Below, one piece after another: positions 60,501 to 63,500 of a DNA stretch of 64,000 nucleotides (positions are counted from its first letter, which is position 1; each line of letters starts with the position of its first letter). Where the stretch lies: the NCBI RefSeq assembly GCF_003018255.1, contig NZ_CP027440.1; one strand, 5' to 3'. The position numbers are program-made. Source of the stretch: Escherichia coli (GTDB lineage: Bacteria; Pseudomonadota; Gammaproteobacteria; Enterobacterales; Enterobacteriaceae).

Positions 60501-63500
60501 TTAGTAGATCATTTTATTGAAATTACACAGCATCCGTCAGGGAGCGATCTAATTTTCTACCCTAAAAGTCAAGGAGATGATAAGCCTGAAAACATCCTGA
60601 AAATTGTCAAAGAATGGCGGCGTTCACAGGGGCTACCCTTGTTTAAAGACTCTAAACAAAGTAGATAATAAAACTATATATGGAACATCATCGCGTCTGG
60701 CTAATGCGATGATGTTAATAACATAAAATAATAATGTGGGTGCTCTTAAAAAACAGGTAAAATACTGAAATCTCATTAGGTTATTTTATCAATTTCCCGC
60801 TTTCACCGATACCCTTTGGCTGGAGGTGAGTCAGTATCCGGAGTTGATAGCGCAGTTTTCAAGTGGTAATCAAACACGTATAAAACAAGGATTAATCGCA
60901 AAAGCACCTCTTGAAGGTTGGCATTATGGCCCTAAAGAAATCGTTAAAAAATTCCACATGTATCATTGTGTTGCGATTGAATATAGTGGCGAAATTTACG
61001 ATATTGATAATTTAAGGAGGGCACACCTCATTTGCATGATGAAATTTATTACAGGAGATAGTTAAATGTATAATTTTAAAGATAAAGTAGAAGATTACAC
61101 AGAGCGGGAATTCATTGAGTTGCTTGGCGAGTTTACAAATCCAACCGGGGATAACGCTCAATTAAAAGGGGAAGAGCTTGACAAATATTGGGATGATCTA
61201 GAAGAACATCTTACCAGAATTACACAACATCCGTTGATGAGCGATCTTATCTACTATCCTGCAAAGAAGGGAGATGATAAGCCTGAAAACATCCTGAAAA
61301 TCGTCAAAGAATGGCGGCGTTCGCAAGGATTGTCTTTGTTCAAAGATTCAGAATGAATTCTAAACAGAATCTGTCACCTGAAAATCATCACGTTCTGGTT
61401 AAGTGATGATTTTCGCTACGAGAAGGTTACGGTGGCGATTGCAGTGATAATAAGCAATGTAAAAAGAAAACATAGGTAAATACTACCTTTCTCTCCTTCC
61501 CTGAACATTCATTTTACATATTAATTCACATAATTGAATTGTTATGCGTTTTGTTGCTTGGTGAATCGGTTCAGAGGACATATTTTTTCGTTTCAATTCT
61601 GTTAATCTCACCCCTTGATGGGTAAATTTAACATTTGTGCATAGTTACAACTTTGAAACGTTATATATGTCAAGTTGTTAAAATGTGCACAGTTTCATGA
61701 TTTCAATCAAAACCTGTATGGACATAAGGTGAATACTTTGTTACTTTAGCGTCACAGACATGAAATTGGTAAGACCAATTGACTTCGGCAAGTGGCTTAA
61801 GACAGGAACTCATGGCCTACAGCAAAATCCGCCAACCAAAACTCTCCGATGTGATTGAGCAGCAACTGGAGTTTTTGATCCTCGAAGGCACTCTCCGCCC
61901 GGGCGAAAAACTCCCACCGGAACGCGAACTGGCAAAACAGTTCGACGTCTCCCGTCCCTCCTTGCGTGAGGCGATTCAACGTCTCGAAGCGAAGGGCTTG
62001 TTGCTTCGTCGCCAGGGTGGCGGCACTTTTGTCCAGAGCAGCCTATGGCAAAGCTTCAGCGATCCGCTGGTGGAGCTGCTCTCCGACCATCCTGAATCAC
62101 AGTATGACTTGCTCGAAACACGACACGCCCTGGAAGGTATCGCCGCTTATTACGCCGCGCTGCGTAGTACCGATGAAGACAAGGAACGCATCCGTGAACT
62201 CCACCATGCCATAGAGCTGGCGCAGCAGTCTGGCGATCTGGACGCGGAATCAAATGCCGTACTCCAGTATCAGATTGCCGTCACCGAAGCGGCCCACAAT
62301 GTGGTTCTGCTTCATCTGCTAAGGTGTATGGAGCCGATGTTGGCCCAGAATGTCCGCCAGAACTTCGAATTGCTCTATTCGCGTCGCGAGATGCTGCCGC
62401 TGGTGAGTAGTCACCGCACCCGCATATTTGAAGCGATTATGGCCGGTAAGCCGGAAGAAGCGCGCGAAGCATCGCATCGCCATCTGGCCTTTATCGAAGA
62501 AATTTTGCTCGACAGAAGCCGTGAAGAGAGCCGCCGTGAGCGTTCTCTACGTCGTCTGGAGCAACGAAAGAATTAGTGATTTTTCTGGTAAAAATTATCC
62601 AGAAGATGTTGTAAATCAAGCGCATATAAAAGCGCGGCAACTAAACGTAGAACCTGTCTTATTGAGCTTTCCGGCGAGAGTTCAATGGGACAGGTTCCAG
62701 AAAACTCAACGTTATTAGATAGATAAGGAATAACCCATGTCAGAACGTTTCCCAAATGACGTGGATCCGATCGAAACTCGCGACTGGCTCCAGGCGATCG
62801 AATCGGTCATCCGTGAAGAAGGTGTTGAGCGTGCTCAGTATCTGATCGACCAACTGCTTGCTGAAGCCCGCAAAGGCGGTGTCAACGTAGCCGCAGGCAC
62901 CGGTATCAGCAACTACATCAACACCATCCCCGTTGAAGAACAACCGGAGTATCCGGGTAATCTGGAACTGGAACGCCGTATTCGTTCAGCTATCCGCTGG
63001 AACGCCATCATGACGGTTCTGCGTGCGTCGAAAAAAGACCTCGAACTGGGCGGCCACATGGCGTCCTTCCAGTCTTCCGCAACCATTTATGATGTGTGCT
63101 TTAACCACTTCTTCCGTGCACGCAACGAGCAGGATGGCGGCGACCTGGTTTACTTCCAGGGCCACATCTCCCCGGGCGTTTACGCTCGTGCTTTCCTGGA
63201 AGGTCGTCTGACTCAGGAGCAGCTGGATAACTTCCGTCAGGAAGTTCACGGCAATGGCCTCTCTTCCTATCCGCACCCGAAACTGATGCCGGAATTCTGG
63301 CAGTTCCCGACCGTATCTATGGGTCTGGGGCCGATTGGTGCTATTTACCAGGCTAAATTCCTGAAATATCTGGAACACCGTGGCCTGAAAGATACCTCTA
63401 AACAAACCGTTTACGCGTTCCTCGGCGACGGTGAAATGGACGAACCGGAATCCAAAGGTGCGATCACCATCGCTACCCGTGAAAAACTGGATAACCTGGT

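What the first reader, a model, noticed from the sequence alone, without database searches (positions are those of the whole stretch)
60826..61065. Second orphan DNase tip is decaying while its immunity gene stays intact
The fragment has lost the catalytic His pair (QIHH becomes HMYH) and has a small indel that scrambles the C-terminal HNH residues. The downstream immunity ORF (61066-61356) remains full length with its own aggagg SD. Retention of immunity without active toxin fits selection for protection against neighbours that still carry this toxin variant.
Basis: seen in the sequence. Interest (0 to 1): 0.45.

Follow-up and report, generated by a model that had tools for sequence, protein, structure and literature searches.

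The report
Dead toxin tip beside kept immunity gene
This is the last cassette of a known E. coli type VI secretion toxin-immunity array (Hcp-ET3-4, between aroP and pdhR): a long-dead remnant of a colicin-type DNase tip followed by an intact immunity gene, an ordinary "orphan immunity" arrangement that is nearly fixed in strains carrying the island.

Summary
Window 60817-61065 is the C-terminal 82-codon "tip" of a colicin/pyocin HNH DNase with no delivery domain. Compared with an intact relative it has a 1-nt deletion after 61018 and two His-to-Tyr changes (E9 His102 and His131). The general-base His103, Asn118 and His127 codons survive, so only one His of the "pair" is lost. The immunity gene's ribosome-binding site is AGGAG, inside the toxin's last codons.

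The locus is the published Hcp-ET3-4 effector island (UTI89_C0121). The same dead tip plus imm3 occurs in about 1050 of the 1058 island-bearing complete E. coli genomes, so the frameshift is old and real, not a sequencing error. An intact toxin with this tip exists, followed by an immunity gene 83% identical to imm3, but only in an uncultured Enterobacteriaceae. I found no working copy in 5426 complete E. coli genomes.

The HNH core of the tip evolves without constraint (dN/dS about 1.7) and imm3 is constrained (about 0.2). One strain shows the dead tip recombined onto the main gene. This is a well-documented example of a known kind and of low novelty.

The parts
57900..59681 (+). Main effector gene (annotated tssD): an Hcp + Pyocin_S + colicin-type HNH DNase fusion of 593 aa, here carrying a 'type 1' tip with QIHH and HDEIH intact. 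It is the homologue of Hcp-ET3-4 (UTI89_C0121).
   Evidence: Pfam T6SS_HCP, Pyocin_S and Col-Pyo_DNase; RefSeq annotation of the identical locus; UTI89 locus at the same aroP-pdhR site; reviews PMC6730261 and PMC6099711.
59687..59977 (+). imm1, the cognate immunity gene of the main toxin (Im9/Im7 family).
   Evidence: Pfam Colicin_Pyocin, 98.7 bits.
60002..60034 (+). 13-bp hairpin after imm1, probably a terminator or mRNA-stabilising element. It recurs after each immunity gene.
   Evidence: Fold -17.6 kcal/mol, z = -5.8.
60127..60372 (+). Orphan tip 1 ('type 2'). The HNH residues are intact but there is no delivery domain and no start codon. It differs at 5 of 81 residues from the tip that UTI89 and 536 deploy on their main toxin.
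60375..60668 (+). imm2, the immunity gene of the type-2 tip.
   Evidence: Pfam, 104 bits. The same immunity type follows the main toxin in UTI89, 536 and ST131.
60684..60716 (+). 13-bp hairpin after imm2.
   Evidence: Fold -17.7 kcal/mol, z = -4.8.
60817..61061 (+). Orphan tip 2 ('type 3'), the finding: a pseudogene remnant of a DNase tip, running from the LWLEVS junction to the original-frame stop TAG at 61059-61061. The annotated ORF is 60826-61065.
   Evidence: Alignments; Pfam partial match; intact relative L003.
60961..60963 (+). TAT codon: E9 His102 (metal ligand) replaced by Tyr. The next codon, CAT (60964-60966), is the retained general-base His103.
   Evidence: residue roles from bioRxiv 10.1101/2020.04.29.068437.
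61018..61019 (+). Site of the 1-nt deletion. The intact relative reads GGATAGTCACG and the window reads GGA-GGGCACA. The deletion breaks the frame between Asn118 and His127.
   Evidence: The 73-nt stretch across it is shared by 1050 genomes.
61047..61049 (+). TAT codon in the original frame: E9 His131 replaced by Tyr. The His127 codon CAT at 61035-61037 is retained.
61053..61058 (+). AGGAGA ribosome-binding site of imm3, 7 nt before the ATG. It is formed by the toxin's last codons (AGG AGA) and is identical in all three cassettes.
   Evidence: Sequence; alignment A1. In an Enterobacter locus only these last ~45 nt of tip remain in front of an orphan immunity gene.
61066..61356 (+). imm3, an intact 96-aa immunity gene with the conserved helix-III hot-spot motif SDLIYYP.
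   Evidence: Pfam, 95 bits; matches to Im7, Im9 and the pyocin AP41 immunity protein; at least 80% of the gene is covered in 1050 genomes (identities in the sampled rows 95.4-100%), with unchanged length in the single-piece rows that cover the whole query.
61379..61415 (+). 13-bp hairpin after imm3. It has the same architecture as the other two, with paired changes in the stem.
   Evidence: Fold -16.8 kcal/mol, z = -2.9.

Best explanation
The finding is the third and last cassette of a polymorphic-toxin array attached to the T6SS effector Hcp-ET3-4.

The main gene fuses an Hcp tube protein to a pyocin-S translocation-like region and a colicin E9-type HNH DNase. The last 82 codons, from the motif LWLEVS onward, encode the immunity-binding region and the HNH active site. 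Together with the immunity gene behind them they form an exchangeable cassette. Older or alternative cassettes sit downstream as orphans, each a tip without a delivery domain or start codon plus an immunity gene.

Orphan 2 is the remnant of a 'type 3' tip. It was inactivated once, before the island diversified within E. coli, by His102Tyr, His131Tyr and a 1-nt deletion. It has since been inherited, duplicated and recombined in that dead state.

imm3 stays open. It would act like Im9 or Im7, binding the DNase beside its active site and blocking DNA access, and so protect against a type-3 DNase injected by a competitor and/or add to protection against related tips.

The dead tip DNA persists for three reasons. 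Its last codons carry the imm3 ribosome-binding site. Its 5' half and the upstream spacer are kept nearly identical to the other cassettes by recombination. Nothing selects for its removal.

Shown: the anatomy, the lesions, their fixation, the existence of an intact relative, the mosaic structure and one recombinant strain. Inferred: the order of events, imm3 expression, and what imm3 protects against.
For: - Domain content.
- Same island as the published UTI89 locus.
- Lesions defined against an intact full-length toxin (594 aa, QIHH...TPHLHDEIHYRR) whose immunity gene is 83% identical to imm3.
- Residue mapping to colicin E9 His102, His103, Asn118, His127 and His131. Residue roles.
- The same dead tip occurs in ST131 (two copies), 536, UTI89, ATCC 25922 and DE17.
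- Population: the 73-nt diagnostic stretch is in 1050 of 1058 island-bearing genomes, and imm3 is covered over at least 80% of its length in 1050. The exact 79-aa product is recorded on >=1000 contigs and the exact imm3 on 698.
- dN/dS against the intact relative: HNH core 1.6-1.9, imm3 0.17-0.26, tip 5' half 0.2-0.3; Fisher p = 0.037.
- Mosaic: orphan 1 and orphan 2 are 87-100% identical per 30-nt window over 60794-60973, 43-77% over 60974-61271, and 100% over 61272-61301.
- Recombination in action: NR1441 has the main tssD fused to the dead tip, annotated 'frameshifted', followed only by imm3. Chimeric proteins P0001 and P0044 point the same way.
- Every sampled strain carries imm1, imm2 and imm3, whichever tip sits on its main gene.
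Against: - No experiment here shows that imm3 is expressed or binds anything.
- No active type-3 toxin was found in 5426 complete E. coli genomes. The supposed attacker is known only from metagenome assemblies of an unnamed Enterobacteriaceae.
- The low dN/dS of imm3 is measured against another species, so it includes time when the gene was certainly in use. Within E. coli the imm3 core has 4 non-synonymous and 0 synonymous polymorphisms in 8 intact alleles, which does not demonstrate present-day constraint.
- One lineage (GMF054 and L094) has lost imm3 by frameshift.
- The promoter scan found no more sites than shuffled sequence.
Confidence: 0.8

Rival explanations
1. imm3 is kept mainly as extra self-protection. 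It cross-neutralises the strain's own Hcp-ET3-4 DNase, or tips that could be swapped in from orphan 1, rather than a foreign type-3 toxin.
For: A review of Ma et al. 2017 reports that all three immunity copies downstream of UTI89 Hcp-ET3-4 contributed to neutralising the toxin; UTI89's second copy is imm3. The type-3 tip shares its immunity-binding region (SSGNQTRIKQGL...GW.YGPKEIVK) almost exactly with the active type-2 tip of UTI89 and 536. No E. coli attacker with an active type-3 tip was found.
Against: The primary paper could not be read, and over-expression commonly gives weak cross-protection in the colicin immunity family (general knowledge). imm3 differs from imm1 and imm2 across the helix-II specificity region (57-65% identity). 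It is closest to the immunity gene that directly follows an intact type-3 toxin.
Confidence: 0.3
2. The 79-codon frameshifted ORF has become a functional gene in its own right, for example a leader ORF translationally coupled to imm3 or a small regulatory protein. That would explain why it is conserved in about 1000 genomes.
For: The ORF length and sequence are conserved across lineages. Its TAA stop abuts the imm3 ATG (TAAATG, 61063-61068). RefSeq annotates it as a protein.
Against: The 'start' GTG is the Val codon of the LWLEVS junction, and the only GGAGG nearby directly abuts it with no spacing. The HNH core has dN/dS above 1 in the original frame. The GMF054 lineage reads a different frame after a further deletion. 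UTI89's other dead tip ends at an in-frame stop. An Enterobacter orphan immunity gene has only ~45 nt of tip in front of it.
Confidence: 0.05
3. The whole cassette, imm3 included, is neutral baggage. It persists only because it sits in a recombining array that selection keeps for the other cassettes.
For: Within E. coli the imm3 core shows only non-synonymous polymorphisms (4 to 0). One lineage has a frameshifted imm3 that has also gained Y11C, G35W and D60N. No E. coli attacker was found.
Against: imm3 has stayed open with unchanged length in all single-piece full-query rows sampled and is present in about 1050 genomes. Meanwhile the adjacent 246-nt tip gained a frameshift and two active-site changes, and further lesions in side lineages. 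The hot-spot motif SDLIYYP is intact in all open alleles.
Confidence: 0.12
4. The frameshift is a sequencing or assembly error and the tip is really intact.
For: None found.
Against: The same deletion appears in independent complete genomes of many lineages and sequencing platforms. The two His-to-Tyr substitutions are independent of the frameshift.
Confidence: 0.01

Closest known systems
Hcp-ET3-4 and its ETI immunity genes of uropathogenic E. coli UTI89 (UTI89_C0121; Ma et al. 2017, Virulence 8:1189, known to me only through reviews PMC6730261 and PMC6099711)
   Same: The island sits at the same chromosomal site (aroP-pdhR). The main protein has the same Hcp + Pyocin_S + colicin DNase architecture. 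It is followed by three immunity genes, one of which in UTI89 is imm3 preceded by the same dead tip.
   Different: The window strain (CFT073/Nissle-like) carries a type-1 tip on the main gene. UTI89 carries type 2 there and keeps type 1 as a dead orphan. The reviews speak of 'duplications of the immunity gene' and do not mention the toxin-tip remnants between them.
Colicin E9/E7 DNase with Im9/Im7, and pyocin S2/AP41 with their immunity proteins
   Same: The fold family and catalytic motif match: the intact relative gives E = 4e-30 to E9 DNase and imm3 gives E = 4e-18 to the AP41 immunity protein. The immunity gene lies immediately downstream with its ribosome-binding site in the toxin's last codons. 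imm3 has the conserved Asp/Tyr-Tyr helix-III motif.
   Different: Delivery is by T6SS through an Hcp fusion, not by receptor-mediated colicin uptake. The locus is chromosomal and has no lysis gene. The tip here lacks the N-terminal half of the DNase domain and two of the four His residues.
Orphan toxin-tip/immunity modules of CDI (cdiA-CT/cdiI) and Rhs loci (general knowledge; not read here)
   Same: The tips lack the delivery region and a start codon. They begin at a conserved junction motif, are each followed by a cognate immunity gene, are arrayed downstream of the main gene, and can recombine with it (NR1441).
   Different: The junction motif is LWLEVS, inside the DNase domain itself, so only half of the toxin domain is exchanged. 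The carrier is Hcp rather than CdiA or Rhs.
Orphan immunity gene arrays in T6SS clusters of Vibrio cholerae (Kirchberger et al. 2017, as cited in PMC6730261)
   Same: Immunity genes are retained without a working cognate effector. They are interpreted as protection against strains that still carry the old effector.
   Different: Here a recognisable dead piece of the effector is retained with each immunity gene. For imm3 the living effector was found only in another species.

Membership tests
Colicin/pyocin HNH DNase domain (Pfam PF21431) | Sequence match above the Pfam gathering score | tested here: met
   35.5 bits against a cut-off of 27, but only profile positions 54-112 of 124.
Colicin/pyocin HNH DNase domain (Pfam PF21431) | Complete domain, including the N-terminal half (E9 residues 1-57) | tested here: not met
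   Homology starts at the LWLEVS junction (60817). Upstream is spacer containing stop codons.
Colicin/pyocin HNH DNase domain (Pfam PF21431) | H-N-H catalytic set (E9 His102, His103, Asn118, His127, His131) in one reading frame | tested here: not met
   His102 and His131 are Tyr, and the frame is broken between Asn118 and His127.
Colicin/pyocin DNase immunity protein (Pfam PF01320), for imm3 | Full-length match above the gathering score | tested here: met
   95 bits against a cut-off of 21.2, profile positions 1-82 of 82; matches to Im7, Im9 and ImAP41.
Colicin/pyocin DNase immunity protein (Pfam PF01320), for imm3 | Conserved helix-III hot-spot motif (Asp and Tyr-Tyr; Im9 D51, Y54, Y55) | tested here: met
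   SDLIYYP aligns with Im7 TDLIYYP and is invariant or near-invariant in alignment A2.
Colicin/pyocin DNase immunity protein (Pfam PF01320), for imm3 | Binds and inhibits a cognate DNase | not testable with these tools
   Needs binding or competition assays. The only indirect support is that the nearest immunity gene (83% identical) directly follows an intact type-3 toxin.
Hcp-ET3-4 effector island | Hcp + Pyocin_S + colicin DNase fusion followed by immunity genes, at the UTI89_C0121 locus | tested here: met
   Pfam architecture; UTI89 has the same gene order between aroP and pdhR.
Hcp-ET3-4 effector island | T6SS-dependent delivery and antibacterial activity | not testable with these tools
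   Reported for the UTI89 protein in reviews. I did not examine this strain, and no T6SS cluster was looked for elsewhere in the window.
Orphan tip/immunity cassette of a polymorphic toxin locus | Tip lacks a delivery domain and start codon, begins at a conserved junction shared with the main gene, and is followed by an immunity gene | tested here: met
   In the chimeric query, matches to orphans begin at position 98, which is the junction; alignments.
Orphan tip/immunity cassette of a polymorphic toxin locus | Can recombine with the main gene | tested here: met
   Inferred from comparison: NR1441 has the main gene joined to the last orphan tip and has lost the cassettes between them. Chimeras P0001 and P0044 agree.

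The most novel reading that the evidence does not exclude
Orphan tips may be kept disarmed on purpose. The tip DNA has to stay, because it holds the immunity gene's ribosome-binding site and the homology arms for cassette exchange, but an intact tip is a hazard. On this reading, the inactivating His102Tyr allele was spread by gene conversion to different orphan cassettes. It is found in front of both imm3 and, in UTI89, 536 and ST131, imm1. imm3 would then serve as a shield against an uncultured gut Enterobacteriaceae that still fires the type-3 toxin.
Probability: 0.1. Interest if true: 0.45.

Novelty: already known. Interest (0 to 1): 0.22.

Why it matters
The locus is present in well-studied strains: CFT073, Nissle 1917, UTI89, 536, ATCC 25922 and ST131. 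It shows how T6SS toxin-immunity cassettes are archived.

- Every island-bearing strain I sampled keeps immunity to all three tip types while firing only one. Strains with different main tips should therefore be mutually immune.
- The third immunity type points to a competitor outside E. coli.
- The dead tip is a convenient, nearly fixed marker for the history of the island.

None of this changes current understanding of orphan immunity genes. It adds detail: the exact lesions, their fixation, an intact relative and a natural recombinant.

Tried and rejected
- Protein word-index searches with the repaired tip and with the intact relative's tip returned only short E. coli fragments and orphans. 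They did not return even known full-length toxins with about 87% identical tips, so they cannot show that intact E. coli versions are absent.
- The first genome-contig scan with imm3 found nothing. The second, with an immunity-protein alignment, found only relatives <=56% identical, in other genera. The intact type-3 carrier is therefore not among the species representatives. A local BLAST of its contig against those loci did not name it either.
- The carrier's proP has no megablast match in E. coli. Its exact ProP is labelled only 'MAG: Enterobacteriaceae bacterium'.
- The primary paper (Ma et al. 2017) is not held.
- Rfam found nothing in 57380-61820.
- The promoter and terminator consensus scan gave no enrichment over shuffles.
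- One search's summary gives 10 records but 264 genomes with >=80% coverage of the chimeric query. I could not reconcile the two numbers. I rely only on the listed rows: NR1441 is the sole single-piece full match.
- Sequencing error was rejected.
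Full report
**What is at the coordinates**

The end of the window is the E. coli aroP-pdhR interval, which here holds an inserted island. Its parts are:
- a 593-aa gene annotated tssD (57900-59681) with Pfam domains T6SS_HCP, Pyocin_S and Col-Pyo_DNase;
- an immunity gene, imm1 (59687-59977);
- a short DNase 'tip' ORF (60136-60372) followed by imm2 (60375-60668);
- a second tip ORF (60826-61065, the finding) followed by imm3 (61066-61356).

The three cassettes align over their whole length.

**Checking the observation**

QIHH in the main toxin and in orphan 1 reads HMYH in orphan 2. A 1-nt deletion then shifts the frame, and the original frame continues as GTPHLHDEIYYRR*. 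Alignment of an intact relative to colicin E9 DNase numbers the residues. The first His of the pair is His102 and is now Tyr. The second, His103, is kept, as are Asn118 and His127. His131 is also Tyr. According to a pyocin S8 study, His103 is the general base, His102 and His127 always bind the metal, and His131 binds Zn or acts in proton transfer.

Two details of the finding are wrong:
- Only one His of the pair is lost.
- The ribosome-binding site of imm3 is AGGAG(A) at 61053-61058, made by the toxin's last codons and shared by all cassettes. The AGGAGG at 61015-61020 sits at the deletion site.

Homology to the main gene starts at 60817, the LWLEVS junction. The annotated GTG start is the Val codon of that motif.

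**What the locus is**

Reviews describe Hcp-ET3-4 of UPEC UTI89 (UTI89_C0121) as an Hcp fused to pyocin S3 and colicin DNase domains and followed by three copies of the immunity gene. They report that all three copies contribute to neutralisation. The UTI89 record shows the same island between aroP and pdhR. I could not read the primary paper.

The window is identical to strain JNE23-011 over the orphan cassette region (100% over window 60700-61420). It is 99.4% identical to CFT073, Nissle 1917, ABU 83972 and ATCC 25922 over the junction-to-imm3 stretch. In total, 1058 of 5426 complete E. coli genomes carry the island.

**Cassette types**

Translating every cassette in nine E. coli loci gives three immunity types.
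- The window strain fires type 1 and stores type 2 (intact) and type 3 (dead).
- UTI89, 536 and DE17 fire type 2 and store type 3 (dead) and type 1 (dead).
- ST131 fires a variant tip with imm2 and stores type 3, type 1 and type 3 again, all dead.

Every sampled strain therefore has imm1, imm2 and imm3. The dead type-1 tip of UTI89 carries the same His-to-Tyr change in its 5' part, joined to a type-1 3' end with a TTA-to-TAA stop. The inactivated 5' part has evidently been copied between cassettes.

**Is there an intact version?**

Immunity proteins 83%, 73% and 67% identical to imm3 directly follow full-length Hcp-DNase toxins in metagenome contigs and in an Enterobacter sp.. The closest one (L003) has this tip:

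LWLEISKDPELMAQFSSGNQTRIKQGLTAKAPIEGWYYGPKEIVKRFQIHHQVAIEDGGEVYDIDNLRIVTPHLHDEIHYRR

It has the same immunity-binding region and the same TPHLHDEI signature as orphan 2, with all four His residues and an open frame. Its host is not E. coli. Its proP has no megablast match in E. coli, and its exact ProP is labelled 'MAG: Enterobacteriaceae bacterium'. That organism has at least five alternative tips after the same junction, all with QIHH and HxxxH.

In E. coli the best match to this intact module is 87-89% identical. In every listed row except H95 (78%, a genome without this cassette) it lies under an orphan, not under tssD. A chimeric query (main-gene upstream + type-3 tip + imm3) found one contiguous full match, strain NR1441. 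There tssD is annotated 'frameshifted' and is followed only by imm3: the dead tip has recombined onto the main gene and the intervening cassettes are gone.

**Fixation**

The 73 nt spanning the deletion and the Tyr131 codon occur at >=95% identity in 1050 genomes, with unchanged length in all 30 sampled rows. At least 80% of imm3 is covered in the same number of genomes, again with unchanged length in the single-piece rows that cover the whole query. The exact 79-aa product is recorded on >=1000 contigs. The frameshift is therefore real and old.

One lineage (GMF054 and L094) has a further deletion in the tip. It also has a frameshifted imm3 carrying extra damaging changes, including the hot-spot Asp.

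**Selection**

| Region | dN/dS against the intact relative |
|---|---|
| imm3 | 0.17-0.26 |
| Tip, 5' half | 0.2-0.3 |
| Tip, HNH core | 1.6-1.9 (about 11 non-synonymous, 1 synonymous) |

These values come; Fisher p = 0.037 for the HNH core against imm3.

Caveat: the comparison spans two species and includes time before the tip was orphaned. Among eight open E. coli alleles the imm3 core has 4 non-synonymous and 0 synonymous differences. Present-day constraint is therefore inferred mainly from the preserved ORF.

**Mosaic structure**

Orphans 1 and 2 are 87-100% identical per 30-nt window over 60794-60973 and 22/22 over 60690-60733. A poorly aligned indel patch at 60764-60793 is only 16/30. 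Identity falls to 43-77% from 60974 to 61271, which covers the HNH core and the first two-thirds of the immunity gene, and returns to 100% at 61272-61301.

The exchangeable core is thus flanked by homogenised arms, which explains the low divergence of the tip's 5' half. In an Enterobacter locus, an orphan immunity gene keeps only the last ~45 nt of tip, the part holding the ribosome-binding site.

**Verdict**

This is a correct reading of an ordinary orphan cassette in a published T6SS effector island. The tip is a fixed pseudogene rather than one now decaying. The 'neighbour with the live toxin' is, on present evidence, another enterobacterial species rather than another E. coli, and cross-protection of the resident toxin is a live alternative. 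Novelty is low.

Noticed in passing
window 60002-60034, 60684-60716, 61379-61415; L008:4292-4350: A 13-bp hairpin follows every immunity gene. The copy after imm3 differs from the other two by paired stem changes, and an Enterobacter locus has an equivalent hairpin with a different sequence. No T-run follows, so it is not a canonical intrinsic terminator. There is no Rfam match.
   Followed up: partly
L013 (E. coli NR1441, NZ_AP040215.1) 2500-4575: A natural recombinant: the main tssD is fused at the LWLEVS junction to the dead type-3 tip and is annotated as a frameshifted pseudogene. Only imm3 is left, and all other cassettes are deleted.
   Followed up: yes
L097 (GMF054) 4110-4647; L094 3992-4529: This lineage has one further deleted base in the tip. 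imm3 itself is frameshifted and has also gained Y11C, G35W and D60N, which shows what real decay of the immunity gene looks like.
   Followed up: partly
window 60127-60372 (orphan tip 1): Orphan 1 has an intact HNH motif and differs at only 5 of 81 residues from the tip on the active main toxin of UTI89 and 536. It could be a ready reserve tip that one recombination would put on the main gene.
   Followed up: partly
L001 (ST131) 3031-3563 versus L095 (UTI89) 4937-5469: The ST131 main toxin has a quite different immunity-binding region (SEINQLRISQGFTPFAPDEGHYIGPKETL) from UTI89's (SSGNQTRIKQGLTAKAPIDGWYYGPKEIV). Both are followed by nearly the same imm2-type immunity protein. Either imm2 has broad specificity or a recent tip swap has left a mismatch.
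   Followed up: no
L095 (UTI89) 6325-6570: The dead tip in front of imm1 is a chimera. Its type-3-derived 5' part carries the same His102Tyr change. Its type-1 3' end carries an in-frame TAA where the other tips have TTA or TTT.
   Followed up: yes
proteins P0044, P0001, P0009: Database proteins that are chimeras. P0044 joins the imm2 N-terminus to the imm3 helix-III region. P0001 is a YH tip with an intact type-2 C-terminus. P0009 is a tip-imm3 fusion. They suggest frequent recombination or deletion inside cassettes.
   Followed up: no
proteins P0139-P0149 (uncultured Enterobacteriaceae, proP locus; L003, L010): This other species has the same Hcp-DNase toxin at a different chromosomal site, next to a C39-peptidase ABC exporter. 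It has at least five alternative tips after the same junction, some resembling the E. coli type-1 and ST131 tips. The tip pool seems to be shared across species.
   Followed up: partly
window 59960-59987 and 60642-60669: A promoter-like TTTAAA-16-GATAAT lies at the 3' end of imm1 and of imm2, reading into the next cassette. It matches 9 of 12 positions and is not enriched over shuffles, so it is only a lead for how orphan immunity genes might be transcribed.
   Followed up: no
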